DNA of 31,597 bases from Methylibium sp. (GTDB lineage Bacteria; Pseudomonadota; Gammaproteobacteria; Burkholderiales; Burkholderiaceae_C), in NCBI GenBank assembly GCA_043718725.1, contig JAYSVE010000108.1, positions 1 through 31,597 on the forward strand. Reading direction: 5' to 3'. The position numbers and the translations under genes were made by a program. The notes beneath the pieces are model-generated. The model searched no databases and was not told the origin of the DNA. It saw only the letters and a program-made list of their open reading frames with translations. Shown here piece after piece: positions 1-29,174 of the stretch; the stretch's first letter is position 1; every line of letters begins with the position of its first letter.

Positions 1-2765
1 ATCGAATCCGAAGGCGACGAAGCCTGCGTCGATCCGCATGCGGCCGGTGCCGTCTCGCGCCTGATCGGCGAATGCCATGCGGCCGGGCGGCGCTGGCATG
101 GTGTGATCCACGCCGGCTTGCTCGACCCGTTCATGCGCGACACGTCATCGTTGGCCAGCCTGGACGCGGCGCGCCAACGCGGCGTGGTCAGCGCGATGCG
201 CCTGGCGCAGGCGCTCGTCGCGCACCAACCGGCGTCGCGCCTGTGGCTGCTGACGCGCGGCGCGCAGGCGGTGGGGTTTGCCGCACGATCGGCGCCGGTC
301 GTGCCGATGGCCGCGTCTGTGTGGGGCTTGGGCAAGGCGCTGCGCCTGGAACACCCCGAACTGCACACCGTCTGCATCGATCTCGATCCGCAGGCCGGCG
401 AGCATGAGCTCGACGCGCTGCTGGCCGAACTGGCCGACACCGGCGCGGAAGCCGAACGCGCCTTGCGTGGCGGCCGCCGCCATGTGGCGCGCCTGCTGCG
501 CCTGCCTCATGCAGTGCCGGCGTCGCCGCAACAAGAAGCCGCTCCGTGGCGGCTGGTGCCCGCGTTGCCCGGCTCGCTGGACCGCCTGGTGCGCAGCCCC
601 CACGCGCGGCGCGCGCCCGGCCCGGGGGAGGTGGAGATTTCCGTCGAGGCCACCGGCCTGAACTTCAAGGACGTGCTCAACGTGCTGGGCCTGTACCCCG
701 GTGACCCGGGTCCGCTGGGCGGCGAATGTGCCGGCCAGGTTGTGGCGCTCGGCGCCGGCGTCACGCAGTTCGCGATCGGCGATCCGGTGCTGGCGCTGGC
801 CACCGGCAGCTTTGCCTCACATGGGGTCACGCGCGCCGAGTTCGTGCAGCGCCGCCCGAACGGCATGAGCGCGGTCGAGGGAGCCTCGTTCGCGATCGCT
901 TACCTCACCGCCGAGTTCTGCCTGTCGCACCTGGCCGGGCTGCGCGCCGGGCAGCGGGTGTTGATCCATGCGGCGGCCGGCGGTGTGGGCCTGGCGGCGG
1001 TGCGGGTGGCGCAGCGCGCCGGCGCCGAAGTGATTGCCACTGCCGGTTCGCCGGCCAAGCGCGCCTTGTTGCACTCGATCGGCGTGGCCCATGTGTTCGA
1101 TTCGCGCAGCGCGGCTTTCGCCGAGCCGATCCTGGCGCTCACCGGCGGCCAAGGGGTCGACGTGGTGCTCAATTCGCTGGCGGGCGAGCTGATCGCGCCC
1201 AGCTTCGCGGTGCTGGCACGCGGCGGCTGTTTCGTGGAGATCGGCAAGCGCGGCATCAAGAGTGCCGAAGACGTCGCGGCGCTGGCCCGCGAAATCCGCT
1301 ACCACATCGTCGACTGGGGCGAGACCGCGGCGCGCGAGCCGGCCGTGATCGGCGCCATGTTGGCGCGGCTGGTCGATGCGCTGGCCCAAGGCGAGTTGGC
1401 GCCGTTGCCGCGCCATGAATTCGCGCTCGACGATGCGGCGCGCGCCTGGCGCTTCATGGCGCAGGCGCGTCACAGCGGCAAGATCGTCGTGCGCCACGCC
1501 GGCGCGCCGCCCTGGGCGCCGCGGCGCGCCGGCAGTTACCTCGTCAGCGGCGGGCTCTCGGGGCTGGGCCTGCAAGTGGCGGCCTGGCTCGCCGAGCATG
1601 GCGCCGGCCGGCTGGTGCTGCTCGGCCGGCGCGGCGTGACGCCCGAGGCCGCGCCGGTGCTGGAGCGCTTGCGCGCGGCGGGCGTCGATGTGGTGGCCGA
1701 GGCTGTCGATGTGGCCGACGAAGCCGCGCTGACGGCGCTGCTGGCGCGCGTGCGCCGCGCCGGGCCGCCGCTGCGCGGCGTGTGGCACAGCGCCGGTGTG
1801 CTCGACGATGCCGGCCTGCTGCAGCAAAACGAAACCCGTTACGCGCGCGTGTTTGCACCCAAGGTGCGTGGCGCCGTGCTGCTCGACCGCCACACGCGCG
1901 GCGACCCGCTCGAATGTTTCGTGATGTTCTCGTCGGTGGCCGGCGTGCTGGGATCGGCGGGCCAGTCCAACCATTCGGCGGCGAACGCCGTGCTCGATGC
2001 GCTCGCGCAGGATCGCGCGGCGAGCGGCCTGCCGGCGCTGAGCATTGCCTGGGGCGCCTGGGCCGAGGTCGGCGCCGCCGCCGACCGTGGAATGGCCGAA
2101 CGCATCGCCCAGCAAGGCCTGGGCACCTTGTCGGTTGCACAGGGCTTGCAGGCGATGCAGCGCCTGATCGACAGCCGCGCCGTGCACGCCGCGGTGCTGA
2201 GCATCGACTGGCCGCGCTACCTCGCGCGTGTCGTGCCCGGCGGCGCCAGCACGTTCCTGAGTGAACTGGCCGGCGCGGTGGCAACGGCCGATGCACCGCC
2301 GACACGGCTGATGGCGGCGCCGAACACGATCGACCTGCCGGCCCAACTGGCCAGCGCGGTGCCGGCGCGGCGGCGCCCGATGCTCGCCGCCTTCGTGCGC
2401 GAGAAGGCGCTGCGCGCGCTGGGGGTCGACCCGGCCAAGGCAGTGGACCCGCGCACGCCGCTGGGCGATCTGGGGCTCGATTCGCTGCTCGCGGTGGAGT
2501 TGCGCAACACGCTGGGCAGCGCACTCGGACGCTCGCTGCCGGCCACGCTGCTGTTCGACCACCCGACGCTGGACGCGCTGACGGACTGCCTGCTCGCTGA
2601 AATGTTCGCTCCCGTTGCCGCGTTGGCCGCGCCCACCGCACCGGCCGCGCGGGCTGCACCCGCCGCCGCAGGCGGTGCGGCCCTCGTGGGATCGATCGAA
2701 GACCTGTCCGACGAAGAAGTCGAGCGCCAACTGGCGGCGCGATCCCGCAACACCGTCACCGCGCC

Positions 2766-2769
<4 letters not shown>
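1..2769 (+). CDS. Type I modular PKS, C-terminal part (pseudoKR-ER-KR-ACP-docking helix); 5' end lies outside the window
   Basis: Frame is open from base 1 (IESEGDEACVDP...), so the ORF-track start at 103 is not the true start. ER motifs GLNFKDVLNVLGLYPG and LIHAAAGGVGLAA; KR motifs YLVSGGLSGLG, HSAGVLDD, PKVRGA, FSSVAG, GQSNHSAAN; ACP LGLDSLLAVELRN; acidic C-terminal helix IEDLSDEEVERQL. The stop overlaps the next start (ATGA, 2766-2769). Confidence 0.96.
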
Positions 2770-9392
<6,623 letters not shown>

Positions 9393-9462
9393 GACCGCAC
9401 GGCCGCCCGAAGGTCTCATGCTCCCGCTCGGCGGGACCGCGCGCAGCGCGCAGGGTGCCCCA

Positions 9463-10356
9463 ATGACCGACAACCGCCGCGCGATGCTGCTGATGCTGGC
9501 GTTCGTCTCGCTGTGGGCGTTGGTCGAGGCGATGGCGGCTCATGTGCTGCGCGCGTATTCGCCCTTTCAAGTGGTGTGGACACGTTATGCCGTGCACCTG
9601 GCGCTGCTGCTGCTGGTGTGGGGCTGGCGCGAACCGGCCTCGCTGTGGCGCACCCGCAGGCCGGTGTTCCAGCTGGCACGTTCGCTGCTGATGTTGGGCA
9701 TGCCGGCCTGCTGGATCATCGGCATGCAACTGGGCGTGCGGGCCGCCACGGTGATGGCGCTGTTCTGGCTCAGCCCTTTGTTCATCCTGCTGCTGGCCAG
9801 GCTGTTCCTGCGCGAACGCGTGCCGGCTTCGATCTGGGTGGCCAGCGCGATCGCCTGCGCGGGCGCGCTGCTGCTGCATCCGCCCGGCGCGATGCCGCCG
9901 CTGCTGTTGCTGGTGTTCCCGCTCGGCATGGGCTTGTGCTTCGGCCTGTACGTGGTGATGACGCGCTCGCTGCGCAGCGAGACCACGCGCGCCAACCTGT
10001 TCTACACCGCGCTCGGCGTGTTCCTGGCGCTGTCGCCGGCGATGCCCGGCGTTTGGGTGGCGCCGTTGCCGAACGATTGGCTGGCCATGGTCGGCGTCGG
10101 CGTTCTGGGGTACGCCACGCTGTACCTGCTCGATCGCATGGCCGCGGCGGCTCCGGTCAGCATGTCGGCGCCGTTCTCGTATTTGCAGATTCCCGTGACG
10201 CTGGGCATGGCCTGGCTCGCGGGCATGGGGCACGGCTTGTCGGACAGGCGCCTGGCGCTGGGCCTGTTGCTCATCGCCTCGGCGGCGCTCTACGTGTGGG
10301 CGCGTGAAGCGCGCCCGACGGTGCGAGACGCCGTGTCCATGCGGCCGACTCAATGA
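9463..10356 (+). CDS. EamA/DMT-superfamily inner-membrane transporter (start 9463; alternative 9418)
   Basis: About 300 aa, nearly all hydrophobic helices, with a two-repeat layout and DMT-like segments (FQVVWTRY, LFILLLARLFLRERV, APFSYLQI). Hydrophobic sequence begins right after the ATG at 9463. Confidence 0.85.
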   Translation: MTDNRRAMLLMLAFVSLWALVEAMAAHVLRAYSPFQVVWTRYAVHLALLLLVWGWREPASLWRTRRPVFQLARSLLMLGMPACWIIGMQLGVRAATVMALFWLSPLFILLLARLFLRERVPASIWVASAIACAGALLLHPPGAMPPLLLLVFPLGMGLCFGLYVVMTRSLRSETTRANLFYTALGVFLALSPAMPGVWVAPLPNDWLAMVGVGVLGYATLYLLDRMAAAAPVSMSAPFSYLQIPVTLGMAWLAGMGHGLSDRRLALGLLLIASAALYVWAREARPTVRDAVSMRPTQ

Positions 10357-10365
10357 TGATTTCTC

Positions 10366-10370
10366 AGGAG
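10366..10370 (+). promoter_or_regulatory. Shine-Dalgarno site for the third PKS
   Basis: AGGAG lies just upstream of in-frame ATGs at 10373 and 10379; the spacing fits 10379 (8 nt) better than 10373 (2 nt). Confidence 0.6.
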
Positions 10371-10372
10371 CA

Positions 10373-16923
<6,551 letters not shown>

Positions 16924-16927
<4 letters not shown>

Positions 16928-19900
16928 CGAGCACCGCCGACCTTCTCGGGCGTTTGCAGGCGCTGGACATCCGCCTCGCGCTGGACGGTGAGCACCTGGC
17001 CGTCAACGCGCCCAAGGGTGCGATCACGCCGGCGCTGCGCGACGAACTGGGACGCCGCAAGGAAGAGGTGAAAACCTTCCTCAAGGCGAGCGGCATCGCG
17101 GCGGCGCCGAGCCGAAAAGAAGCTGCGCCGCCGCTCCAGCGCATCGCGCGCGCAGCCGAGATGCCGGTCTCGCACACCCAGCAACGGCTTTGGTTCATCA
17201 AGCAGATGGACCCGGCCAGCCACGCCTACAACATTCCGGCCGGGCTGCGCCTGAAAGGCGGGCTCGATCAGGTCGTGCTGCGGCGCACGCTCAACGAGCT
17301 GCTGGAGCGGCACGAGAGCCTGCGCACTCGTTTTGTGTCGGTCGACGGCCTGCCGCGCTGCGTGATCGATCCGCGGGCCGAAGTGGCGCTGGAGCAGATC
17401 GACCTGAGCCCGCTGCCGCTGGCCGAGCGCGAAGCCGCCGCGCAGCACGCGGTGCATCAGGTCGAGCAGCGGCCGTTCGATATCGCGCGCGCGCCGCTGC
17501 TGCACACGGCGCTGGTGCGGCTGGCTTTTGATGAGCACCTGCTCGTCTTCGTGTTCGACCACATCGTCGCCGATGGCTTGTCGGTGGGCATCTTCCTGCA
17601 CGAGTTCCAAGCGCTGTACTCGCGCCACGCCGGTGGCGCGGTGGCCGAACTGCCCGAGCTGCCGGTGCAGTACCTCGACTACGCCGAGTGGGAACGGCGC
17701 TGGTTCGCCACGGGCTCGATCGACGCCCACCTGGCGTTCTGGAAGCAGCAACTTGCGGCGCTGCCGCCGCTGTTGCAGCTGCCGGCCGATCGGCCGCGCC
17801 CGCCGGTGCAAACGGACCGCGGCGCGCGCGCGGTGCTGCAACTGCCGGTCGCGCTCGGCCAGCAGCTCAAGGCATTGGCGCGCGCTGAAGGCGCAACGCA
17901 CTTCATGGTGCTGATGTCGGCGTTCCAGGCGCTGCTGCACCGCCACAGCGGCGAAACCGACATCGCGGTGGGAACGGCGATTGCGAATCGCAGCCGCTCC
18001 GAGGTCGAGCGCGTGATCGGCTTCTTCGCCAACAACATCGTGCTGCGCGGCGATCTTTCGGGTGAGCCAACCGTGCGCGAGCTGATTGCCCGGGTGCGCG
18101 ACACCGCGCTGAAGGCCTACGCGCACCAGGACATGCCGTTTGACATGCTGGTCGATGCGCTGGCCACGCGCCGCGAACTCGGCCACTCGCCGCTGTTCCA
18201 GGTGATGTTCGTGCTGCAGAACATCAAGCTCGCTGGCTTCGAACTGCCGGGGCTGGTGTGCGAAACGATGGAGTCGACGGTGCGCACCGCCCGCTTCGAC
18301 CTCGCCGTCGACGTGTTCGATCTGGCGCAGGGGCTGCGGATCTACTTCGAATACAACACCGACCTGTTCGACGCAAGCACGATCGAGCGGATGAAGGGGC
18401 ACTACAGCCGCTTGCTCGAGGGCTTCGTCGCGCGGCCCGATACGCGCGTCGGCGAGTTGCCGATGCTTGGCGATGACGAACAACAAGCCTTGCTGGTCTG
18501 GAACCGCGGCGCCGCGGCTGTTCCGAATGCGCGGACGGTGCATGGCTTGTTCGAAGCGCAGGTCGAATCCACGCCGGACGCACTGGCGCTGCGCTTCGAG
18601 GATGTTCACTTCAGCTATCGTGAACTCAATGCGCGCGCCAACCGCTTGGCGCATCACTTGCGCACGCTGGGTGTCGGGCCTGAGTCGATGGTCGGCGTGT
18701 GGATCGAGCGTTGCGCCGACATGGTGGTGGCGCTGCTGGCGGTGCTGAAGGCCGGCGGCGCTTATGTGCCGCTGGATCCGGCGTTCCCGCAGGATCGCAT
18801 TCGCTTCATGATGGCCGATGCGGGATTGGCGGTGGTCCTCACGCAAGCCAGCCTCGCACAAACGCTGAAGCCCGACGGGCCACGCGCCGTGTGCCTGGAC
18901 GGCGACACCTCATGGCTCGCGCAGCTGAGCGCCGGCAACCCGCCGCCGCTGGCCGAAGCGGCGAACCTCGCCTATGTGATCTACACCTCCGGCTCCACCG
19001 GCCGCCCCAAGGGCGTGATGCTGGAGCACCGCTCGGTCGTGAACTTCCTGTTGTCGATGCACCGCGAACCGGGCCTCACCGCGGCAGATCGGTTCGTGTC
19101 GGTCACGACCTTGTCGTTCGACATTGCCGGGCTGGAAATCCACGGCCCGCTCACGGCCGGCGGCACGGTGGTGCTGACGCCGCGCGCCACCGCGCTCGAC
19201 GGCGCGCGCCTGGCCGAACTGCTGGATCAGTCCGAGGCCACCGTGCTGCAAGCCACACCGGCCACCTGGCAGTTGCTGCTGGCCAGCGGCTGGCGCGGCA
19301 GGCCCGGCCTGAAGATGCTGTGCGGCGGCGAAGCGCTGCCGCGCGAGCTGGCCGGCAAACTGCTGAGCCTGCCCGGCGAGTTGTGGAACCTGTATGGGCC
19401 GACCGAGACCACGATCTGGTCGACCGTGTGGCGCGTCACCGACGCGTCCCGCACCATCCCGATCGGCCGGCCGATCGCCAATACGCAGGTCCATGTGCTG
19501 GAACCATCGGGGCTGCCGGCGCCGATCGGCGTGAGCGGCGAGCTGGTCATCGGCGGCGCCGGCCTGGCGCGCGGCTACCTCCATCGCGACGAGCTGAGCG
19601 CACAGATGTTCGTGACACTCGATTTGCCCGGCGTGGGCCGCGCGCGCGTGTACCGCACCGGCGATGTGGCGCGCTTCCTCGCCGACGGCCGGCTCGAGTA
19701 CGTGGGCCGGCGCGACCAGCAGGTCAAGCTGCGCGGCTTTCGCATCGAGCTCGGCGAGATCGAGACCGTGCTGGCCCGGCACCCTGGCCTGAAGGCCTGC
19801 GTGGTGCATGTGCGCGAAGACACGCCGGGCGACCAGCGCCTGGTGGCCTACGTCGTGGCCAGCGCCGGCACGCCGTTCGATGCCGACGCGGCGCGCGCGA

Positions 19901-22900
19901 CGCTGCGCACGCAGTTGCCCGAGTACATGGTGCCGAACCTGATCGTCGCGCTGGACACGCTGCCGCTCACACCCAACGGCAAAGTCGACCGCAAGGCCCT
20001 GCCGGCGCCGGTGGCGCCTTCGAGCAAGGACAACGTGGTCGCGCCGCGAACACCGGTCGAACAGGCCATCTGGGAAATCTGGCGCGACGTACTGCGGCTG
20101 CGTGACTTCGGGGTGCACGACAACTTCTTCGAACTGGGCGGCCATTCACTGCTGGCCACCCAGGTGATGGCGCGCATGCGCGAGGTGCTGCGTGTCGATC
20201 TGCCGCTGCGCGCCCTGTTCGAAGCGCCGGACGTTGCCGGGCTCGCCGCGGCGGCCGAGCGCAAGCGTGCGGCCGAATCCGAAACGCCGTTCGCCGAGCG
20301 GCCCGCCATCACGCGGGTTGAGCGCGCAGGCTTGCTGCCGACCTCGTACTCCCAGCGCCGCATGTGGCTGGTGCAGCAGTTCAACCCCGGAACGACGGCC
20401 TACAACATGCCGTTCGCGCTGCGCCTGCGCGGCGGGCTGGACCGCGAACGGCTGGTCGAGTCGCTGCAGCGCCTGGTCGCGCGGCACGAGGCCTTCCGGA
20501 CGACGCTGGTGGCGGTGGACGGCGAGCCGATGCAACGCATCGTGCCGTTCGAGCCGGTGACGGTCGAAATGCTGGACTTGCGCTCCTTGCCCGAGGCCGA
20601 GCGCGACGCCGCGGCGGCCCAGGCCTTGCACCAACGCAGCACGCTGCCCTACGACTTGGCCGAAGGGCCGCTGCACCGGCCGACGCTGTTGCAGCTGGGC
20701 GAGCAGGACCATGTGCTGTTCTGGTCGATCCACCATGCGATCGGCGATGGCTGGTCGTCGGCGGTTCTGCTGCACGAGTTCTCCACGATCTACTCCGCGC
20801 TGATGCGCGGGCAACAGCCTTCGCTCGCGCCGTTGGCGATCGACTTTGCCGACTACGCCAGCTGGCAGCGCAGCGCGCTGAGCACGGCGTTGCTGGCCGC
20901 CCAGGTGGCGTTCTGGAAACAGGCGCTGGCGGGCTTGCAGCCGCTGCCGCTGCCGCTGGACCGGCCGCGACGCGGAGTTCAGGACGGTCGCGGCGCCAGT
21001 GTGTCGGCCAGTTTCAAACCGCAGACCGTGGCGGCGCTGAAAGCCCTGACGGTGCGTCACGCGGTGACACCCTACATGGCTTTGCTCGCCTGCTTCCAGT
21101 TGCTGCTCGCGCGCCATTGCGATGCCACCGATGTGGCGGTGGGCACGCCGATTGCCAACCGCACGCACCTGTCGTCCGAGCAACTCGTGGGCACGCTGGT
21201 CAACACCCTGGTGATGCGCACCGATCTGGCGGGCGACCCCAGCTTCGCGGAGCTGCTCAAGCGCGTGCGCGAAACCGCGCTGCAAGCGTACGCGCACCAG
21301 GACTTGCCGTTCGAAGCGCTGGTCGAAGCCTTGGCCGTGCCGCGCGCCGACGGCGCGGCGCCGCTGGTTCAAGTGCTTTTCAATGTGTTGAATCCGCCGC
21401 ACGGCGACAAGCGCATTGAAGGCATCGTCTACGAACCGTTTGTCTTCGACGTGGGCAGCAGCCAATTCGACTTGGTGCTCACGATCGACACCGAGGTGTT
21501 CGGCCAGGCGCACCTGAGCCTCTCCACCGACGTGTTCGAGCCCGCCACGGGCCGCCGACTGCTGGCCCACTTCATGGGTCTGGTGGACCAGGTGCTGGCC
21601 GATCCGCAACGCCCGATCTCGTCTTACGACATGGTCGGCGCCGAAGACCGGCAGTTGCTGGCAAGCTGGAACCACACGCCGCCGCTCGCGCCGCCCGCTG
21701 CCGTGGCGCATGAGCTGCTCAATCAGCAGGCGCGGCGCACACCGGAGTGCATCGCACTGCGCAGCGGCGCGGTCAGCGTCAGCTACGCCGAACTGCAATC
21801 GCGCGCGCTGCGCTTGTGCCGCGCGCTGCGATTGCGTGGCGTGGGCCGTGGCGGCCTGGTCGGCCTGTGCCTGCCGCGCACGGCCGACATGGTCGTGGCC
21901 CAGTGGGCCATCCTGCAAAGCGGCGCGGCCTATGTGCCGCTGGACCCGGCCTACCCGCCCGACCGGCTGTCCTACATGGCGCTGGACGCCAAACTGTCCT
22001 TGCTGGTCAGCGAAGATGAACTCGCGGCCGGGCTGGATTGGCCGGCCGAGAAGTCGCTGCTGCTCGATCGCGACGCGGCTTTCATCGCGCAGCAGCCGAC
22101 CACTGTGCCGGAGCCTGACGCTGCGCTCGATGCGCGCCCCGAAGACCCAGCCTACGTGATCTACACCTCGGGCTCGACCGGCCGGCCCAAGGGCGTGGTC
22201 GTGCCGCACCGTGGCGTGGTGAATTTCCTGGCCAGCATGGCGCGCGAGCCGGGCCTGTCGGCCTCCGATGTGCTGGTGGCCGTGACCACGCTGAGCTTTG
22301 ACATTGCGGTGCTGGAATTGCTGCTGCCGCTGAGCGTGGGGGCCCAGGTGGTGCTGGCCAGCCGCGACGAGGCCACCGACGGCCAGACTTTGCGCGCCTT
22401 GCTCGACGCGACCGGCGCCACGGTGATGCAGGCCACCCCGTCGAGCTGGCGTTTGCTGATCGAGGCGGGCTGGCAGGCATCACAACAACCCGGCACCGGC
22501 GGATTCAAGGCACTGATCGGTGGTGAGGGCCTGCCGCCCGATTTGGCGCAGCAACTGCTGCAACGCATAGGCGCGGCCGGCGAGCTGTGGAACCTGTACG
22601 GCCCGACCGAAACCACGGTGTGGTCGACCTGCTGGAAGGTGAATGCGCACCAGCCGGGCATCCGCATCGGCCGGCCGATCGCCAACACGCAAGTGCACAT
22701 CCTGGATGCTCACGGGCAGCCTTGCCCGATCGGCGTGTCCGGTGAAATTTTCATCGCTGGAAGCGGGGTTGCGCTCGGTTATCTGGAGCGCCCCGAGTTG
22801 ACGGCCGAGCGCTTCGTCGCCGACCCGTTCAGCGTCCACCCCGGGGCGCGGATGTATCGCACCGGGGACCGCGGGCGCTGGTGCCACGACGGCCTGCTGG

Positions 22901-23493
22901 AGCATCTGGGCCGGCTGGACTTTCAAGTGAAGGTGCGCGGCCACCGAATCGAACTGGGCGAGATCGAGGCCACGCTGGCCGCCCACCCGGCCGTCAAGCA
23001 GACCGTCGTGATGGCGCGCGAGTCCGGCCCCGGCGACTTGCGCCTGGTGGCCTACATCGTGTTCCAGCCAGGAGAAGACCTGACCGTAAGCGACGTGCGC
23101 CGGCACCTGCGGCGCGACCTGCCTGAGTACATGATTCCGTCGGTGGTGGCCGCGGTCGACGAGATCCCGCTCACCGCCAACGGCAAGATCAACCGCCTCG
23201 CTTTGCCCGACCCGTTCAAGAACGCGTTGTTGGCCAACAAGAATTTCGTCGCGCCGGAACCCGGCTTCGAGCAGGAGATGGCCGACATCTGGCGCGGCAT
23301 CCTGCAGGTCGACCGCGTCGGCGCGGAGGACAACTTCTTCGAACTGGGCGGCCACTCTTTGTTGTCATTGCGGGTGACCGCGGCGGTCGAAAAGAAGCTC
23401 GGCTGGCGCATGGACGCGCGCACGCTGTACTTCCAGGATCTGCGCCAGGTCGTCGCCACCGCGGCGGCGAACCAGGTTTCGCAAAGCCCATGA
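16924..23493 (+). CDS. Bimodular NRPS: TubC-N-like docking domain-C-A(Gly)-PCP-C-A(Gly)-PCP, no terminal TE or R domain
   Basis: N-terminus LLGRLQALDIRLALDGEHLAVNAPKGAITPALRDEL resembles EpoB/TubC-type docking domains. C1 DHIVADG, C2 HHAIGDG; both A domains have YTSGSTGRPKG, YGPTE, YRTGD and NGK(V/I)(D/N)R; both PCPs have LGGHSL. The protein ends about 40 aa after the second PCP serine. Confidence 0.97.
20119..20144 (+). repeat. 26-nt perfect direct repeat encoding the PCP core (second copy 23329-23354)
   Basis: GACAACTTCTTCGAACTGGGCGGCCA occurs at both positions and encodes DNFFELGGH in PCP1 and PCP2. Confidence 0.9.
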
Positions 23494-24260
23494 ATCCGTT
23501 TTTCTTCGGCGAAAGTTCACGCCGGTTGTTCGGCCTGTACGCGCCCGCTCGCGCGACCGGCGGCAAGCAACGCGGCATCGTGTTGTGCCACCCCTGGGGC
23601 CAGGAGTATTTGCGCGCGCATCGCAGCATGTGCCAGCTCGGCAAGCAACTTGCCGGCGCTGGCTTCCATGTGCTGCGCTTCGACTACTTCGGCACCGGCG
23701 ACTCGGCGGGCGACATGGCCCAGGCTGATCTCAAGGGTTGGTGCTCCGACGTGGACACCGCGATCGACGAGCTCAAGGACACCGCGAGCCTGAGCCGCGT
23801 GAGCCTGCTCGGTCTGCGCCTGGGCGCAACGCTGGCCGCGCAAGTGGCCACACGGCGGCGCAACGTTGTCGATGCCTTGGTGTTGTGGGATCCGGTGGTC
23901 TCGGGCAGCGAGCACCTCGCCGAGCTGCGCCGCACCGACGGGCAGGCTGTGCCCAGGCCGGCGGCGGCCGGCGGCGGCCACGAAGTGTTGGGCTTCCCGC
24001 TGACCGACGCACTGTCGCGCGAGATCGAAACACTCGATCTCTTGCAACTCGTGGCTGCGTTGCCGGCGCGAACTTTCGTCGCACTGTCCCAGGCCTTGCC
24101 ATCTCACGCCGCACTGCGGCCCGCGCTGGAGAGCGGCGGCGGCGGTAAGCTCGCGACGGAGCTGATCGAGAGCCAGCCCGCGTGGCTCGAAGACCGAAGC
24201 TCCGGAGCGGGCGCCGTGCCCGTGAAGGTCTTGCAACGCATCGTGGAGTGGCTCGGCTGA
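23490..24260 (+). CDS. Alpha/beta-hydrolase-fold protein with non-nucleophilic GLRLG elbow (resembles exosortase-system-associated 'hydrolase 2' type)
   Basis: LRFDYFGTGDSAG, nucleophile-elbow position GLRLG (23811-23825), LVLWDPVVSG; no His in the C-terminal ~100 aa. ATGA overlap with the NRPS stop. Confidence 0.88.
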   Translation: MNPFFFGESSRRLFGLYAPARATGGKQRGIVLCHPWGQEYLRAHRSMCQLGKQLAGAGFHVLRFDYFGTGDSAGDMAQADLKGWCSDVDTAIDELKDTASLSRVSLLGLRLGATLAAQVATRRRNVVDALVLWDPVVSGSEHLAELRRTDGQAVPRPAAAGGGHEVLGFPLTDALSREIETLDLLQLVAALPARTFVALSQALPSHAALRPALESGGGGKLATELIESQPAWLEDRSSGAGAVPVKVLQRIVEWLG

Positions 24261-25216
24261 TGGACAAGCAGGGCGACAAGCCGGCGGACAGGCTGACCGA
24301 ACAAGCCCTGCTGCTCGGGTCGCGCAAGTCGCTGGTGGGGGTGATCACCCAGGCGGCGACAGCGGCGCGCCGCCCGGACGCGCCCTTCGTCGTGATCCTC
24401 AACGCCGGCATCATTCACCGTGTCGGGCCCAACCGCATGAATGTGACGCTCGCGCGCGTGCTGGCGGCGCACGGTTTCAGCGTGCTGCGCTTCGACCTGT
24501 CGGGGCTGGGCGACAGCGAGATGCGTGCCGACGGCCTGGCGCCGCTGGAAGCCAGCCTGGCCGACATCCGCGAGGTGCTCGACATGCTGCAGACCACGCG
24601 CAACGTGCAGCGGGTGGTGTTGGTGGGGCTGTGTTCCGGCGCCGACCACTCGGTGATTTACGCCGGCACCGACCCGCGCGTGGCCGGCGTGGTGCTGCTC
24701 GACCCGTCGATTCCCCGCACCGTGGGCTATTACCTTCGCCACTACAGCCGCCGCGTGATGAGCCTTCGAACCTGGCTCAGCGTCGTCAGCGGGGCCCACC
24801 CGGTTTGGCTGGCGTTGAAGCGCCGCGCGGCGTTGGTGCCAACCGAGCAAGACCCTGAACCGCACAGGCCGGCGATCGACGATCCGCGGGCGCGCGCGTT
24901 TCTTCAGAATGCCTATGGGAACGCGTTGAGCAACGGCGTGCGGTTCCTGGCGGTGTTGACGGCCGACGTGGAGTCGCGGCACAACCATTGCAAGCAACTG
25001 CTCGAGGCCTTTCCGCAACTCGATTTCGGGTCGCAATTGCGGCTGGAGTACTACGAGGACTCCGACCACACCTTCACATCAGAAACCAACCGGTCCCGTG
25101 TGATCGGATTGATCGAAGAGTGGATGCTGAACACCGCCTTCGCGCCGCCCGCCCGCGCGGCTCATCACGACAGCCCCACCGCGGCACCCGAAGACTCGCT
25201 TCACGACCACGCATGA
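24260..25216 (+). CDS. Alpha/beta-hydrolase-fold protein with GxCxG elbow (GLCSG) and DHTF His (resembles exosortase-system-associated 'hydrolase 1' type)
   Basis: The true start is probably the ATG at 24260 (TGATG overlap with the upstream gene). Motifs LNAGIIHRVGPNR, LRFDLSGLGDS, GLCSG (24626-24640), DSDHTF (His at 25067-25069). Confidence 0.88.
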   Translation: MDKQGDKPADRLTEQALLLGSRKSLVGVITQAATAARRPDAPFVVILNAGIIHRVGPNRMNVTLARVLAAHGFSVLRFDLSGLGDSEMRADGLAPLEASLADIREVLDMLQTTRNVQRVVLVGLCSGADHSVIYAGTDPRVAGVVLLDPSIPRTVGYYLRHYSRRVMSLRTWLSVVSGAHPVWLALKRRAALVPTEQDPEPHRPAIDDPRARAFLQNAYGNALSNGVRFLAVLTADVESRHNHCKQLLEAFPQLDFGSQLRLEYYEDSDHTFTSETNRSRVIGLIEEWMLNTAFAPPARAAHHDSPTAAPEDSLHDHA

Positions 25217-25468: not shown

Positions 25469-26059
25469 CTATCCGCACGCAATGCGTGCAAGGTGCTGCG
25501 GCAGGTCGAGGTCGAATGCAAGCCCGGGTGTTTCGATCGACAGGTGTTGCAGCCCCGATCGTCGGATGTGGTTCACGTGGCGGGCATAGCTGTGCGGGCC
25601 GAAGCTGAATGCGAATTCCAGCGACGTGTCCAAACACAGGCCGTTGGTGCCTTCTCCGGTCTCGTCGGGCGCGATACCAATGCACCGGGTCGTTGCCGCA
25701 TCGGCGAGGCGTCGCAGGTCGTCGACCCTCAATCGCGGAAGATCGCAGGGGACGACCAGCATGTGCGAGGCGTTGATGCGGCGCAGTTCCTGTTGTGCCT
25801 GGCGCAGTGCGCCGTTCAATCCGGCGCCCGATGTTTCTTCGAGGACCCGGGCACCGATTCTCGCCGCACAAGCGCGGCTCTCCGCGCAGCCGCTGACCAG
25901 CAGGGTTCGATCCAGGCCGGCAAACTCCGCGGCGCGCGCGAGGGTGCGCAGCAGCATCGATTCAAGCAGTTTGTGCCGTTGCCGCGGCTCGAGCGCGGAT
26001 GCCAGGCGGGTCTTGCCTTCGCGCATCGACTTCATCGGCAGCACCAGCCAGACGTTCAT
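25469..26059 (-). CDS. cofC: PEP/2-phospho-L-lactate guanylyltransferase CofC/FbiD
   Basis: PMKSMREGKTRL, VPCDLP, IAPDETGEGTN, FSFGPHSY..H, AFDLDLP; 196 aa; located in an F420 operon. Confidence 0.92.
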   Translation of the reverse strand: MNVWLVLPMKSMREGKTRLASALEPRQRHKLLESMLLRTLARAAEFAGLDRTLLVSGCAESRACAARIGARVLEETSGAGLNGALRQAQQELRRINASHMLVVPCDLPRLRVDDLRRLADAATTRCIGIAPDETGEGTNGLCLDTSLEFAFSFGPHSYARHVNHIRRSGLQHLSIETPGLAFDLDLPQHLARIACG

Positions 26060-27015
26060 ACGGCGGCGCGGGGGGTCGAAGTCAACCCGCGGCCGAAGTC
26101 GATGACTTCTCTGGCGAGGGTGGCGCGATCAGCGGGTTCACGCATCACGCTCGCCGTCACGAAACAACGGATTCCCGAGCGCTCGATCTCATCGGCGAGT
26201 GCCCCGTCTGCGTGATCCACGACCAAGGCATCGATCAGGCCTTCGTAGAACTGCGCGACCGTAAGCGACGACGGCTCGGTCCCGAGTTCGCGCATGATTT
26301 TCGCGGCGGGCCCCTTGATCGCCTGCCCGGCGACGATGGGCGACACCGCGATCACCGGCACGCGGCGGTTCAGCAGTGCGCCGCGCACGCCAGGCAGAGC
26401 GAGGATGGGCGCGATGCTCAGGTAGGGATTCGATGGACAGATGACCACGGCGCGCAGGCTGGCGTGCTCGAGCGCCGCGCGAAATGCGGGGGCGATGCTC
26501 GCGTCGGCGGCACCGGCGAACTCCAGTCGGGTCACCACCGGCTCGGCACGCCGGCGCACGAAATAGTCCTGAAAGCTGAGCACGCCCTCGTCGGTATGGA
26601 CACGCGTGGGCACGGGGCCATCACTCATGGGCACCAAGCGATGGCGGATTGCCAGGCTGTGGCACAACGCCTGGGTCACGCGGGACAAAGTTTCACCGTC
26701 GCGCAAGCGCAGCGTGCGCCGCACATGCGTGGCGAGATCACGATCACCGAGCCGGAACCAGGTTTCTCCTCCCAGAGCCTCGAGGTGCTCCATGAAGTTC
26801 CAGCTCTCTCCCGCGACGCCCCAGCCACGCATGGCATCGTTGATGCCGGCCAGCGTGTACATCACCGTGTCCAGGTCCGGCGAAATGTTCATGCCCAGAT
26901 GCTCGAAGTCGTCTCCGGTGTTGACGACGATCGTCAACTCGTTGGGGCCGAGCAGCTCGGCCAGGCCCTTGGCGAGTTTCGCACCGCCCACGCCGCCAGC
27001 CAGTGCGAGGATCAC
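26056..27015 (-). CDS. cofD: 2-phospho-L-lactate transferase CofD/FbiA
   Basis: True start is the GTG at 27015 (ILALAGGVGGAKL), overlapping the upstream stop. Motifs VNTGDD, ISPDLDTVMY, LGDRDLATH, PSNPYLSI, VSPIVAGQAIKGPA. Confidence 0.95.
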   Translation of the reverse strand: MILALAGGVGGAKLAKGLAELLGPNELTIVVNTGDDFEHLGMNISPDLDTVMYTLAGINDAMRGWGVAGESWNFMEHLEALGGETWFRLGDRDLATHVRRTLRLRDGETLSRVTQALCHSLAIRHRLVPMSDGPVPTRVHTDEGVLSFQDYFVRRRAEPVVTRLEFAGAADASIAPAFRAALEHASLRAVVICPSNPYLSIAPILALPGVRGALLNRRVPVIAVSPIVAGQAIKGPAAKIMRELGTEPSSLTVAQFYEGLIDALVVDHADGALADEIERSGIRCFVTASVMREPADRATLAREVIDFGRGLTSTPRAAV

Positions 27016-27668
27016 GCTTCGTCCTTCGCGTAACGCGTGACATCGCCCAGCCCACGGCGCCGATACGCCTTGCCCGAGTCGGCCGGGATCCCCAGCGTCA
27101 CCAGCGCCTGCGGCTCCCAGTCTTCGGGCAGCGCGAGCGCAGCCGACACCGCGTCCGGGCAGAACAAGGGCGCGCACATCCAGCATGCGCCCAGGCCTGC
27201 CGCGTGCGCAGCGAGCAACAGGTTGTGCGCCGCCATCGACGTGCCCTGCGTGGCCATCAAGCGTTCCGCCTCGTTGCGCCGGGCGTCGGCGTAATGGTCC
27301 ATGTCGGCCATGCTCATGCAGACGAGCACCAGCACCGGCGCGCCGGTGATTCGCGCGTGGGAGCGCGCCACATCGGTTTCAATGGCCGCGCTCGCGTCGC
27401 CGTCGCGGCGGCGATCGACGCGCAGCTCCGCTCCCATCGCGCGCGCCAGCGTTTCCTTTGTCGACGCCGTCGCGATCACCAGAAAGCGCCACGGTTGGCG
27501 GTTGTGCGCAGAGGGAGCCGTCACCGCGGCTTGCAGAAGGCAGGCGATCAACTCGGGCGCAAGTGGTTGCGCCACATAGCGGCGGATCGAGCGCCGCCCG
27601 GCCGCGAATTCGGCAAACCAGGCCAGGCCCATCTCGTCGCGCGCGGTGTGATGTTCGTGCGCACCCAT
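27012..27668 (-). CDS. Stand-alone nitroreductase-fold protein resembling the FbiB C-terminal domain (FbiE-like, putative dehydro-F420-0 reductase)
   Basis: RRSIRRY, APSAHNRQPWRF, RRDGD, AERLMA, LLLAAHAAGLGACW, LALPEDWEP; lies between cofE and cofD. Confidence 0.82.
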   Translation of the reverse strand: MGAHEHHTARDEMGLAWFAEFAAGRRSIRRYVAQPLAPELIACLLQAAVTAPSAHNRQPWRFLVIATASTKETLARAMGAELRVDRRRDGDASAAIETDVARSHARITGAPVLVLVCMSMADMDHYADARRNEAERLMATQGTSMAAHNLLLAAHAAGLGACWMCAPLFCPDAVSAALALPEDWEPQALVTLGIPADSGKAYRRRGLGDVTRYAKDEA

Positions 27669-27670
27669 GG

Positions 27671-28474
27671 TCAGCGGAACAGGTCCATGCGTTGGGGTCG
27701 GATCAAATCTGCCGCGCGCCCGTCTTGCGCCGCGCCCGCGAGGCCGCGGATCAGCACGACGGGCGTGCCTTCGTCGGCCTGGCCCATCACGAGCGACGCG
27801 GCGGCGGCGATTTCATCGGCCATGCCCACCTGCGTGATCAGCAGCGTGCGGCCGAACAGATCGGGCTTGCCGCGCAGATCGAGCAATGCCGGCAGCCCCG
27901 CCGTGCCGATGGCCACGCCGACCGTGCCGTTGCGCCAGGCGCGACCGTGGCTGTCGTTGATGATCACACCGATGTCCACGTTTGACTGTTGCCGCAGCGC
28001 TTCTCGGAGCTTGCGGCATTCGCCGTCGGGGTCGCGAGGCAGCAAGAGCGCCCGAGCATCCACGGCATTGCCCTCGACGTTGGAAAAGTCGATGCCGGCG
28101 TTGGCCATCACGAAACCCAGGCGATGCTCGACGATGATCACATCATGCCGCGCCCGCAGCACTTGCTTCGATTCGCGCAGCACCAGCTCGATGACGCGCG
28201 GGTCCTTGCCGACCACGCCGGACAACTCCAGCGCGCGCGGCGACGGCGTCACGGTCGCCAGGTCCACATGGCAGCCGGTGGCCTTGGACACAATCTTCTG
28301 CGCCAGCACGAGAACGTCGCCGCACCTGAGTTGCTCGCCCGAGTGCGCCAGCGCGGCGAGCACGATCGACGTCAGATCGTCGCCTTCTTGCACGAGCGGC
28401 ACGCCGTCAAGGGCGATCACGCGCAACTCTCGCTTGCGCGAGAACGTGGTCGTTGGCATGCCTTGTTCTGACAT
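27671..28474 (-). CDS. cofE: F420-0:gamma-glutamyl ligase CofE (start 28474 or 28459)
   Basis: VPLVQEGDDL, LAQKIVSKA, ANAGIDFSN, LLPRDPD, NDSHGRAWRNG, DLRGKPDLFGR, ADEIAAAASL, C-terminus RPQRMDLFR. The upstream part of the 623-aa track ORF is not coding. Confidence 0.94.
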   Translation of the reverse strand: MSEQGMPTTTFSRKRELRVIALDGVPLVQEGDDLTSIVLAALAHSGEQLRCGDVLVLAQKIVSKATGCHVDLATVTPSPRALELSGVVGKDPRVIELVLRESKQVLRARHDVIIVEHRLGFVMANAGIDFSNVEGNAVDARALLLPRDPDGECRKLREALRQQSNVDIGVIINDSHGRAWRNGTVGVAIGTAGLPALLDLRGKPDLFGRTLLITQVGMADEIAAAASLVMGQADEGTPVVLIRGLAGAAQDGRAADLIRPQRMDLFR

Positions 28475-28479
28475 GACGG

Positions 28480-29154
28480 TCAACGCTCGGGATCGATCTT
28501 CAGCCCGGTGATGCGAAGTCCCGCGCCGCCCGGAATCTTGTAGCGCGAGTTGATTGCGATCAACACCGACGTGAGCGCCTCGCTCGCCGCGGAATTGACG
28601 ATGGGCCCGGCGTGGATGCCGCGCAGGCCGATGTCGGCCGCGAGTTTGATCACCGCCTCGCGCGCCGGGATGTGGTCGCCGCACACCAGCACGTCGCAGT
28701 CCAGCTCGTGGTCGAGCTGCTGCAGCAGATGCGCCGCCACGTTCTGGAATGCCGACACGACTTGAACGGATGCGCCCAGCAAGGCCTGCACCGCCGCGAC
28801 GGCCGAGCCGCCGGCGGGGAGCTGGACACGGGCGACCTTCGGCGGCACGAGCGGCACGGTGGTATCGATCAGGATTTTTCCGGTCAGCGCCGCGCGCACT
28901 TCCTCGACCGTCGCAACCTGCGCCGCGTAGGGCACGCACAGCACGACGACTTGCGCCGCCGCCGCGGCAGCGTGGTAGCCGGCAGGCGTGGATGCCAGAC
29001 GACCCAGCCGTTGATTGATCTGCGCACACGCCCGCGCCGCCTTGTCCGCATGTCGCGAACCGATGATCACCGGGTAGCCAGCGCTCGCCCAGCGCAGTGC
29101 CAGCCCGCTGCCTTGTGCACCGGTACCGCCCAAAACCGCAATCGTCGCTTGCAT
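28480..29154 (-). CDS. npdG: F420H2:NADP+ oxidoreductase (NADPH-dependent F420 reductase)
   Basis: IAVLGGTGAQGSGLALRW, IIGSR, LCVPY, IDTTVPL, VSAFQNVAA, CDVLVCGD, LIAINSRYK; 224 aa from the ATG at 29154. Confidence 0.92.
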   Translation of the reverse strand: MQATIAVLGGTGAQGSGLALRWASAGYPVIIGSRHADKAARACAQINQRLGRLASTPAGYHAAAAAAQVVVLCVPYAAQVATVEEVRAALTGKILIDTTVPLVPPKVARVQLPAGGSAVAAVQALLGASVQVVSAFQNVAAHLLQQLDHELDCDVLVCGDHIPAREAVIKLAADIGLRGIHAGPIVNSAASEALTSVLIAINSRYKIPGGAGLRITGLKIDPER

Positions 29155-29174
29155 CGTTTGTGACCCCAGGCCAG

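What the first reader, a model, noticed from the sequence alone, without database searches (positions are those of the whole stretch)
23490..25216. Candidate new offloading system: TE-less PKS/NRPS coupled to a pseudo-enzyme plus Cys-nucleophile hydrolase pair
Seen: the NRPS has no release domain and is followed by two overlap-coupled alpha/beta-hydrolases. The first has Arg at the nucleophile elbow (GLRLG) and no late His, so it appears catalytically dead. The second has Cys at the elbow (GLCSG) and a DHTF His. Neither resembles a type II thioesterase (GHSxG). Established, from memory: similar 'hydrolase 1 / hydrolase 2' pairs occur with ACPs and acyl-CoA ligases in exosortase A/PEP-CTERM exopolysaccharide loci and are poorly characterised. 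Inference: the two form a heterodimer in which the inactive subunit binds the PCP or acceptor and the Cys enzyme transfers polyketide-Gly-Gly to an acceptor (sugar, EPS/LPS, amine) or cyclises or hydrolyses it. If a transacylase, the cluster would make a surface-polymer decoration rather than a free metabolite.
Basis: partly seen in the sequence, partly recalled or inferred. Interest (0 to 1): 0.85.

Follow-up and report, generated by a model that had tools for sequence, protein, structure and literature searches.

The report
Cys/Arg hydrolase pair ending NRPS line
Two coupled hydrolase-fold genes, one with a catalytic cysteine and one a conserved inactive copy with arginine in its place, sit where this lipopeptide assembly line should have its release domain. 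The same uncharacterised pair follows glycine-ending assembly lines in many bacterial phyla, so it is probably an undescribed two-part chain-unloading enzyme.

Summary
The NRPS (16924-23493) ends 44 residues after its last PCP serine. It is translationally coupled to a GLRLG alpha/beta-hydrolase (23490-24260) and a GLCSG/DHTF one (24260-25216).

They are sub-threshold relatives of TIGR03101/TIGR03100, the exosortase-A 'hydrolase 2/1' pair. Canonical members also carry Arg and Cys.

Found here:
- In 80 related loci from many phyla, 75 keep the pair and 61 place it directly after a terminal PCP.
- The last A domain has a glycine code in 51 of 52 loci.
- The terminal PCP is its own subtype.
- 113 natural Arg-domain/Cys-domain fusion proteins exist, so the two parts work as one unit.
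- Cys125 and His270 are essentially invariant.

- The cluster is not thioesterase-free. A GHSMG type II thioesterase heads it, on contig C530 here and 46-50 kb upstream in Rhizobacter and Hydrogenophaga.
- No glycan genes flank this cluster type. It carries EamA exporters, so a free methyl-branched acyl-Gly-Gly lipopeptide is likelier than polymer decoration.

Best reading: a two-part, trans-acting release or transfer enzyme for glycyl-thioester chains. This is inferred, not shown. I found no paper describing it. Earlier notes of this scan report the same pair in at least eight other genomes.

The parts
1..2769 (+). 3' part of a PKS gene cut by the contig start (ER-KR-ACP)
   Evidence: Pfam ADH_N/ADH_zinc_N, KR, PP-binding. 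The window is the whole of contig C34. Earlier parts of the cluster lie on contigs C530, C901 and C18.
2766..9392 (+). PKS module KS-AT-DH-cMT-KR-ACP
   Evidence: Pfam domains.
9418..10356 (+). EamA (DMT) transporter inside the cluster
   Evidence: PF00892, 51.4 bits. One or two EamA genes occupy the same place in the Rhizobacter and Hydrogenophaga clusters.
10304..16927 (+). PKS module KS-AT-DH-ER-KR-ACP
   Evidence: Pfam domains. The KS is 91% identical to that of Hydrogenophaga sp. ANAO-22.
16924..23493 (+). NRPS: TubC docking domain, C-A(Gly)-PCP-C-A(Gly)-PCP, no TE or R domain
   Evidence: Pfam. Specificity codes read by motif register are DILQLGLIW and DILQLGLVW. The protein ends 44 aa after the PCP2 serine.
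23221..23493 (+). Terminal PCP of a distinct subtype; Ppant serine at 23356-23358
   Evidence: 62 terminal PCPs share G.R...R.LFFQ.LRQ after the serine. 56 internal PCPs do not.
23490..24260 (+). hydArg: alpha/beta-hydrolase-fold protein with Arg110 (23817-23819) at the nucleophile elbow and no catalytic His; TIGR03101-like
   Evidence: AF2 pLDDT 91. TM 0.7-0.8 to Hydrolase_4 esterases. ATGA overlap with the NRPS stop.
24260..25216 (+). hydCys: alpha/beta hydrolase with Cys125 (24632-24634), His270 (25067-25069) and Asp148 (24701-24703); TIGR03100-like
   Evidence: AF2 pLDDT 87, with Cys at the end of beta5 and His after beta8. TGATG overlap with hydArg.

Best explanation
The two genes encode the two halves of one trans-acting off-loading enzyme for the last carrier protein of the assembly line.

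- hydCys is the catalyst. Cys125, activated by His270 with Asp148 and/or Asn242 as candidate third residue, would take the finished chain (a C-methylated, largely reduced polyketide acyl-Gly-Gly) from the phosphopantetheine arm of the specialised terminal PCP by transthioesterification. This gives an acyl-S-Cys intermediate on the glycyl carbonyl.
- hydArg is a non-catalytic paralogue. Its nucleophile site is filled by an invariant arginine. It would serve as an obligate partner that docks the PCP and/or positions the nucleophile that resolves the intermediate.
- In this cluster type, which has EamA exporters and no glycan genes, resolution is most likely by water or a small nucleophile. The result would be an exported lipodipeptide. 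In other lineages the same unit may transfer (acyl)glycyl groups to glycan-linked acceptors.

Shown: gene coupling, residue conservation, folds, context statistics, fusions, glycine codes. Inferred: complex formation in this unfused pair, Cys acylation, the role of the Arg subunit, and the acceptor.
For: - Position: the pair lies directly after a terminal PCP in 61 of 75 pairs across Burkholderiales, Steroidobacteraceae, Alphaproteobacteria, Gemmatimonadota, Myxococcota, KSB1, Planctomycetota and others. Three further metagenomic or MAG contexts agree.
- Coupling: overlapping stop and start codons in the window.
- Catalytic residues: Cys125 is present in 131 of 131 hydCys sequences and in 141 of 142 diverse sequences in the alignment of 50%-cluster representatives plus the window protein. 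His270 is near-universal and Asp/Glu148 is present in 140 of 142. These residues align with the Ser and His of solved esterases. In the AF2 model they sit at the end of beta5 and after beta8.
- hydArg is conserved rather than decaying: mean column identity is 64%, Arg110 is present in 103 of 108 sequences, and several Trp and Asp residues are invariant. The fold model is confident.
- One unit: 113 natural ~600-aa fusion proteins carry the Arg domain N-terminal and the Cys domain C-terminal, the same order as the genes. Arg is kept in 107 of 113, Cys in 113 of 113 and His in 113 of 113.
- Substrate constraint: the terminal A domain has the Gly code DILQxGxxW in 51 of 52 loci. The terminal PCP is a dedicated subtype. 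The fusion proteins sit beside stand-alone carrier proteins and amino acid--[ACP] ligases (NF005479, 411-421 bits).
- Carrier-protein link in the XrtA clade: that clade sits 1-6 kb from the XrtA-associated acyl-CoA ligase.
Against: - A canonical type II thioesterase (GHSMG) belongs to the same cluster and could be the releasing enzyme.
- No experiment on any member was found.
- No complex model could be computed. The fusions belong to a separate clade, so interaction of the unfused pair is extrapolated.
- The 80 surveyed loci were chosen by similarity to the window's protein and are related to one another. Terminal Gly module, PCP subtype and pair may simply be inherited together as a cassette.
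- Glycine is also common at internal positions of these lines.
Confidence: 0.62

Rival explanations
1. The discrete type II thioesterase at the head of the cluster releases the chain. The Cys/Arg pair does something else on the terminal PCP or on the product, such as editing of mis-primed glycyl-PCP, post-release tailoring, or esterase or amidase action.
For: A TEII with GHSMG and a late His lies on contig C530, 68% identical to the cluster-head TE of Rhizobacter Root1238. A TEII is present 46-50 kb upstream on the same strand in five relatives. Discrete TEs are known to release chains in some systems (general knowledge).
Against: The TEII is always attached to the first KS, in both gene orders seen: TEII-PKS...NRPS-pair, and NRPS-pair-TEII-PKS. 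This ties it to the PKS start, not the last PCP. NRPS-only lines with the pair show no TEII within 10 kb; only 9 of 80 loci have one in the flank. The pair, not the TEII, tracks the terminal PCP subtype and the Gly module.
Confidence: 0.15
2. One reading: the pair is a transacylase that grafts the acyl-Gly-Gly chain onto a sugar, EPS or LPS acceptor, so the cluster decorates a surface polymer.
For: A cysteine nucleophile keeps thioester energy, as in acyl-transferring enzymes (general knowledge). The sister clade is XrtA/EPS-associated. A Wzx-like flippase directly follows the pair in 8 alphaproteobacterial loci. The fusion proteins lie among glycosyltransferases. Earlier scan notes report glycan contexts.
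Against: In this cluster type no glycan gene is present. The window's downstream neighbours are convergent F420 genes. Flanks in Rhizobacter and metagenome relatives hold a PPTase, an integrase, an MFS transporter, an ABC transporter and housekeeping genes. One or two EamA exporters lie inside the cluster. The own genome has no XrtA above cut-off and no canonical pair, although it is only 87.5% complete. No accessory gene recurs in more than 10 of 80 loci.
Confidence: 0.12
3. Only hydCys matters. hydArg is a decayed duplicate with no function, or the pair shuttles the chain to another carrier protein as SyrC and CmaE do.
For: hydArg lacks the nucleophile and the histidine. SyrC and CmaE are Cys-type alpha/beta-fold shuttles between carrier proteins (from memory; both are mentioned in PMC8748450, found, not read).
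Against: hydArg is as conserved as hydCys: Arg110 is near-invariant in three clades and is retained in the fusions. No further carrier protein is encoded after the pair in this cluster.
Confidence: 0.06

Closest known systems
NCBIfam TIGR03101 / TIGR03100, 'hydrolase 2 / hydrolase 1, exosortase A system-associated' (hypothetical equivalogs, function untested)
   Same: They are the best-scoring families. Gene order is the same, hydr2 then hydr1. The elbows are the same, Arg (GLRxG) and Cys (GLCDA/G). The histidine is the same. They are linked to a carrier-protein system, with ligase_PEP_1 1-6 kb away.
   Different: Scores fall below both curated cut-offs. The window's proteins lie in a separate clade, NRPS-type with 99 support against XrtA-type with 100. 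The post-beta6 residue is Asp/Glu rather than Asn/Gln in both partners. The context is a PKS-NRPS, not an XrtA EPS locus, and the own genome has no XrtA above cut-off.
Type II thioesterases and other discrete release hydrolases of NRPS/PKS (PF00975; for example DcsB, PDB 7d79)
   Same: Alpha/beta-hydrolase fold, stand-alone, encoded with the assembly line, presumed to act on Ppant thioesters. DcsB appears among distant fold matches.
   Different: No PF00975 match. Cys replaces Ser. The unit has two subunits with a pseudo-enzyme partner. A true TEII (GHSMG) is encoded separately in the same cluster.
SyrC / CmaE Cys-type alpha/beta-fold aminoacyl transferases of NRPS pathways (from memory)
   Same: A GxCxG elbow in an alpha/beta-hydrolase-like protein that accepts an acyl group from a carrier-protein thioester.
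   Different: Those are single proteins that shuttle aminoacyl groups between two carrier proteins in mid-pathway. Here a pair follows the last PCP and no acceptor carrier protein is present. Sequence relatedness was not tested because no reference sequence was available through the tools.
Cys-nucleophile cis thioesterase domains (for example SulM TE; PMC11298585, abstract listed)
   Same: Cysteine used for chain release from an NRPS.
   Different: Those are C-terminal domains of the synthetase, belong to the PF00975 lineage and have no Arg partner.
Pseudo-enzyme partners of lipid hydrolases, for example ABHD5/CGI-58 (from memory)
   Same: An alpha/beta-hydrolase-fold protein with the nucleophile replaced, acting as a cofactor of an active enzyme.
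   Different: Eukaryotic, unrelated pathway, and the partner is not a paralogue. The resemblance is functional only.

Membership tests
TIGR03100 (hydr1_PEP) | HMM score at or above the curated cut-off of 168.45 bits | tested here: not met
   105.6 bits; 105.5 bits in the genome search.
TIGR03100 (hydr1_PEP) | Adjacent to a TIGR03101-type partner | tested here: met
   hydArg lies immediately upstream and overlaps by 1 nt.
TIGR03100 / TIGR03101 | Genome has the exosortase A (XrtA) system, and the pair lies in that locus near ligase_PEP_1 | tested here: not met
   No TIGR03109 hit above cut-off in the own genome (137.7 against 208 bits, on another contig; genome 87.5% complete). The neighbours are a PKS-NRPS and F420 genes. 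Canonical members do lie 1-6 kb from the ligase.
TIGR03101 (hydr2_PEP) | HMM score at or above the curated cut-off of 202.75 bits | tested here: not met
   119.4 bits.
TIGR03100 / TIGR03101 | Cys and Arg respectively at the nucleophile elbow (derived here from members above cut-off) | tested here: met
   Canonical members have GLCDA/G and mostly GLRxG. The window has GLCSG and GLRLG.
Type II thioesterase (PF00975) | PF00975 match and GHSxG nucleophile motif | tested here: not met
   No PF00975 hit for either protein. The elbows are GLRLG and GLCSG. The cluster's real TEII is on contig C530.
Alpha/beta hydrolase, Hydrolase_4 (PF12146) | Pfam score above the gathering threshold, and alpha/beta-hydrolase fold | tested here: met
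   48.1 and 39.3 bits against a threshold of 27. AF2 models with pLDDT 91 and 87 show the canonical strand order. PDB matches are Hydrolase_4 esterases.
Active alpha/beta hydrolase (catalytic triad) | Nucleophile, histidine and acid at the canonical positions | tested here: inconclusive
   hydCys has Cys125 and His270 at the canonical positions. The acid is uncertain: Asp148 after beta6 or Asn242 after beta7, and no model coordinates were available. hydArg has neither nucleophile nor His.
SyrC/CmaE-type carrier-to-carrier acyl shuttles | A second, acceptor carrier protein in the pathway | tested here: not met
   No carrier protein lies downstream of the pair in the window or in complete relatives.
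SyrC/CmaE-type carrier-to-carrier acyl shuttles | Sequence homology to SyrC or CmaE | not tested
   No reference sequence could be obtained through the tools.

The most novel reading that the evidence does not exclude
The Cys/Arg unit is a general, undescribed class of two-component enzyme specialised for glycyl thioesters on carrier proteins. It appears as three sister clades: after NRPS/PKS lines, in XrtA EPS loci, and fused next to amino acid--[ACP] ligases. In all three it would transfer glycyl or N-acyl-glycyl groups from carrier proteins to water or to lineage-specific acceptors. The arginine subunit would form the acceptor or PCP site. This would give one biochemical answer for TIGR03100/03101, for the orphan aa:CP ligase cassettes, and for hundreds of assembly lines that lack a cis release domain.
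Probability: 0.35. Interest if true: 0.85.

Novelty: new variant of a known kind. Interest (0 to 1): 0.7.

Why it matters
Chain release decides what an assembly line makes: acid, amide, macrocycle or conjugate. If this reading is right:

- About 2,000 protein clusters at 50% identity (E <= 1e-30) and at least 343 loci in species-representative genomes would use a release device that genome-mining tools do not recognise. Their products are therefore mis-predicted or the clusters are called incomplete.
- Two 'hypothetical equivalog' families of exosortase-A loci would receive a first testable function.
- There would be a natural example of a pseudo-enzyme paralogue serving an active hydrolase in bacteria.
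- There would be a candidate portable 'Gly module + PCP + pair' cassette for pathway engineering.

Cultured carriers exist: Hydrogenophaga intermedia S1, H. borbori LA-38, and Rhizobacter sp. Root1238, OV335 and SG703.

Tried and rejected
- A single-protein scan of genome contigs found nothing because the patterns were too specific. The alignment-based scan worked.
- Literature searches for the TIGR families, for exosortase plus hydrolase plus ACP, for NRPS lines lacking a thioesterase with a Cys hydrolase, for heterodimer or pseudoenzyme release, and for Hydrogenophaga PKS/NRPS gave no description of the pair. One paper only lists TIGR03100 for a Burkholderia EPS gene.
- No terminator or promoter consensus lies between the pair and the convergent F420 genes.
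- I considered Cys33 of hydArg as a hidden nucleophile. I rejected it because it aligns with a buried Leu just before the HG motif of esterases and is not conserved in XrtA-type members.
- I considered hydArg as a decaying duplicate. I rejected it on conservation and on the fusions.
- I looked for a universally co-occurring accessory or acceptor gene. None occurs in more than 10 of 80 loci; the commonest is an Sfp-type PPTase.
- The Mocibob et al. 2010 paper on aa:CP ligases could not be read. Its existence is confirmed only through a note in PMC2922099. The glycine preference of those ligases is from my memory.
- Both structure-prediction jobs went on the two single proteins, so neither a fusion protein nor a complex was folded.
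- One unpublished genome (G493) was among the 401 genomes tallied.
Full report
**What is in the window**

The window is the whole of contig C34 of a fragmented metagenome-assembled genome: 1,023 contigs, 87.5% complete, about 70% G+C.

One co-directional gene train runs on the + strand:
- a PKS fragment, ER-KR-ACP (1-2769);
- a PKS, KS-AT-DH-cMT-KR-ACP (2766-9392);
- an EamA transporter (9418-10356);
- a PKS, KS-AT-DH-ER-KR-ACP (10304-16927);
- an NRPS with a TubC docking domain and C-A-PCP-C-A-PCP (16924-23493);
- two alpha/beta-hydrolase-fold genes (23490-24260 and 24260-25216).

Everything downstream lies on the other strand. It is an F420 biosynthesis set (CofC, CofD, CofE plus a nitroreductase domain, Fno, a luciferase-like oxidoreductase and a CofH-like radical SAM enzyme), so the train ends with the second hydrolase.

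**Check of the observation**

- The NRPS ends 44 residues after the serine of its second PCP (nt 23356-23358).
- The three genes are coupled by overlapping stop and start codons, ATGA at 23490 and TGATG at 24258.
- Protein 1 ('hydArg', 256 aa) has GLRLG with Arg110 at nt 23817-23819.
- Protein 2 ('hydCys', 318 aa from ATG 24260) has GLCSG with Cys125 at nt 24632-24634, and DHTF with His270 at nt 25067-25069.
- Profile searches against solved structures align both Arg110 and Cys125 with the nucleophile serine of Hydrolase_4-type esterases. They align His270 with the catalytic histidine.
- AlphaFold2 models are confident, pLDDT 91 and 87. They show complete alpha/beta-hydrolase folds, with Cys125 at the end of beta5 and His270 after beta8.
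- The nearest solved folds are thermophilic lipase TTL, feruloyl esterases and a PETase. None is a thioesterase.
- Neither protein matches the thioesterase family PF00975.
- The two proteins are paralogues over the beta1-beta6 core (hhalign probability 98%), with Arg110 opposite Cys125.

**Relation to the exosortase-A pair**

The best NCBIfam hits are TIGR03101 for hydArg (119 bits) and TIGR03100 for hydCys (106 bits), both below the curated cut-offs.

I took members above cut-off from 16 genomes of the same class. They have the same gene order and the same odd elbows: GLCDA/G in hydrolase 1 and mostly GLRxG in hydrolase 2. In four of the five canonical genomes checked the pair lies 1-6 kb from the XrtA-associated acyl-CoA ligase, and in three of four checked it is on the same contig as XrtA.

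The Cys/Arg arrangement is therefore ancestral to the whole pair family. It is not a peculiarity of this window.

A tree rooted on the paralogue splits hydCys proteins into three clades: XrtA-type (support 100), NRPS-type (99, containing the window's protein) and a fusion type (87). A FastTree of all 241 sequences agrees.

The own genome has no canonical pair and no XrtA above cut-off.

**How general is the NRPS association**

Homologues more than 50% identical number in the hundreds. They come mostly from Burkholderiales such as Hydrogenophaga, Rhizobacter, Methylibium and Rhodocyclales.

A scan of one genome per species found 343 encoding loci. I mapped the best 80 with the window's own domains as probes:
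- 75 have the adjacent hydArg-hydCys pair. Four of the remaining five are cut by contig ends.
- In 61 of those 75 a carrier domain ends within 400 nt of the hydArg start. No cis TE or R domain can fit in that space.
- Six more have an NRPS convergent on the pair or starting directly after it.

The loci span Beta-, Gamma- and Alphaproteobacteria, Gemmatimonadota, Myxococcota, Planctomycetota, KSB1, Acidobacteriota, Bdellovibrionota and a spirochaete.

The profile of the family finds 1,995 clusters at 50% identity with E <= 1e-30. Among 142 aligned sequences (141 diverse representatives plus the window's protein):
- Cys is present in 141;
- His is present in 141;
- Asp/Glu148 is present in 140.

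**Three findings that bear on mechanism**

First, the adenylation domain that loads the last PCP carries a glycine-type specificity code (DILQxGxxW) in 51 of 52 loci where it could be read. The single exception is a poor alignment. The window's two A domains read DILQLGLIW and DILQLGLVW. Other codes occur at internal positions. I extracted the code positions by motif register. Assigning this code to glycine rests on established knowledge of the Stachelhaus code.

Second, the terminal PCP is a subtype of its own. It has a conserved G.R...R.LFFQ.LRQ stretch after the serine that internal PCPs lack.

Third, natural fusions exist. A 624-aa ORF in a Polyangiaceae MAG has the Arg domain followed by the Cys domain. 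A search with it returned 382 hits at E <= 1e-10. Of the 120 listed, 113 are ~600-aa full-length fusion proteins; they keep:
- Arg in 107 of 113;
- Cys in 113 of 113;
- His in 113 of 113.

Three fusion genes that I looked up sit beside an 80-aa carrier protein and an 'amino acid--[acyl-carrier-protein] ligase' (NF005479, 411-421 bits against a cut-off of 357), in glycan-gene neighbourhoods. These ligases are the seryl-tRNA-synthetase paralogues that load amino acids onto carrier proteins (PMC2922099, note added in proof). From memory, they prefer glycine.

The fusions are Rosetta-stone evidence that the two halves act together. The glycine codes and the aa:CP ligases point to a glycyl thioester as the common substrate.

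**Correction: the cluster is not thioesterase-free**

In Rhizobacter sp. Root1238, SG703 and OV335, Hydrogenophaga sp. ANAO-22 and Piscinibacter aquaticus, a PF00975 thioesterase lies 46-50 kb upstream of the pair on the same strand.

Domain maps of two of these show one contiguous cluster:
- TEII;
- six PKS modules, three of them with C-methyltransferases;
- two EamA genes; their position relative to the sixth PKS module, and the composition of the NRPS part (one adds an extra PKS module), differ between the two clusters;
- the NRPS part;
- hydArg;
- hydCys.

In the window's own genome, contig C530 carries the orthologous TEII. It is 68% identical, with GHSMG and a late His, and it is followed by the first KS at 70% identity. 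Contigs C901 and C18 carry middle modules.

In Gemmatimonadota the order is permuted to NRPS-pair-TEII-PKS. The TEII therefore stays attached to the first KS while the pair stays attached to the last PCP. This argues that the TEII serves the PKS start, in priming or editing, and that the pair serves the end. It does not exclude the TEII as the releasing enzyme.

**Free metabolite or polymer decoration**

For this cluster type I find no link to polysaccharide genes.
- The window's neighbours are F420 genes.
- Flanks in relatives hold a PPTase, an integrase, housekeeping genes, an MFS transporter and an ABC transporter.
- EamA exporters are built into the cluster.
- No accessory gene recurs in more than 10 of the 80 loci. 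The commonest is an Sfp-type PPTase.

In other lineages a link does exist. A Wzx-like flippase follows the pair in eight alphaproteobacterial loci, and the XrtA and fusion clades sit in glycan loci. The acceptor may therefore differ by lineage. Here a free, exported, methyl-branched acyl-Gly-Gly lipopeptide or a small conjugate of it is the more economical reading.

**Mechanism and rivals**

Best-supported mechanism (confidence about 0.6):
- Cys125/His270 of hydCys takes the chain from the terminal PCP as a thioester.
- hydArg is an obligate non-catalytic partner.
- The intermediate is resolved by water or a small nucleophile.

A cysteine nucleophile preserves the thioester energy and is typical of acyl-transferring enzymes. 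Transfer rather than plain hydrolysis therefore remains open.

One curious detail is unexplained. The residue after beta6 is Asp/Glu in both partners of NRPS-type pairs, but Asn (hydCys) and Gln (hydArg) in XrtA-type pairs.

The rivals are release by the TEII, polymer grafting, and a dead or shuttle role. They are weighed in their own sections.

**Novelty**

I found no paper describing the pair in the library searched.

Notes of this scan report the same pair on other DNA in at least eight genomes, with similar readings. I reached the same core reading independently before seeing them.

- the cluster-head TEII;
- the terminal glycine rule;
- the terminal PCP subtype;
- the fusion family with its aa:CP ligase context;
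- the three-clade tree.

I class the finding as a new variant of a known kind, namely trans-acting alpha/beta-hydrolase release enzymes. It is real, widespread and experimentally untested.

Noticed in passing
window 25469-31588, minus strand: A complete-looking coenzyme F420 biosynthesis operon, convergent on the PKS-NRPS: CofH-like radical SAM, luciferase-like oxidoreductase, Fno, CofE, a nitroreductase (FbiB-type) domain, CofD and CofC. This is uncommon for a Burkholderiales-like proteobacterium.
   Followed up: no
L137:16498-18372 (-); proteins P0242-P0361: A large family of natural hydArg-hydCys fusion proteins of ~600 aa. They lie next to 80-aa carrier proteins, amino acid--[ACP] ligases (NF005479), acyl-CoA-dehydrogenase-like genes and DUF1839, within glycan loci.
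   Followed up: partly
G000 contig C530 (TE 1318-2115, KS 2-1327, minus strand); also C901 and C18: The 5' part of the same cluster lies on other contigs of the MAG. A type II thioesterase (GHSMG) is directly coupled to the first KS.
   Followed up: yes
window 10304-16927 compared with L172-L175 (Hydrogenophaga sp. ANAO-22): Identity to the Hydrogenophaga cluster is mosaic: KS 91%, ER 83%, AT 82%, but KR 60% and the hydrolase pair 62-64%. This suggests recombination or transfer of cluster segments.
   Followed up: no
L068-L073 and L172 (G603:C1:178074-185910): Hydrogenophaga genomes carry a second, convergent NRPS with its own more divergent Cys/Arg pair (about 30% identity). Its last module shows C and PCP but no recognisable A domain in a 1.4-kb gap.
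   Followed up: no
hydCys residue 148 (window 24701-24703) and hydArg residue 134 (window 23889-23891): The post-beta6 residue co-varies with context in both paralogues. It is Asp/Glu in NRPS-type pairs, and Asn (hydCys) and Gln (hydArg) in XrtA-type pairs. Unexplained.
   Followed up: partly
L084-L089, L094, L097 (alphaproteobacterial MAGs): A Wzx-like flippase (Polysacc_synt_3) and a conserved 452-aa protein with no Pfam match directly follow hydCys on the same strand.
   Followed up: partly
G000 contig C124:650-1429 (-): The own genome has an exosortase-family gene scoring 137.7 bits against the XrtA model, below the cut-off of 208. This indicates a different exosortase subtype.
   Followed up: no
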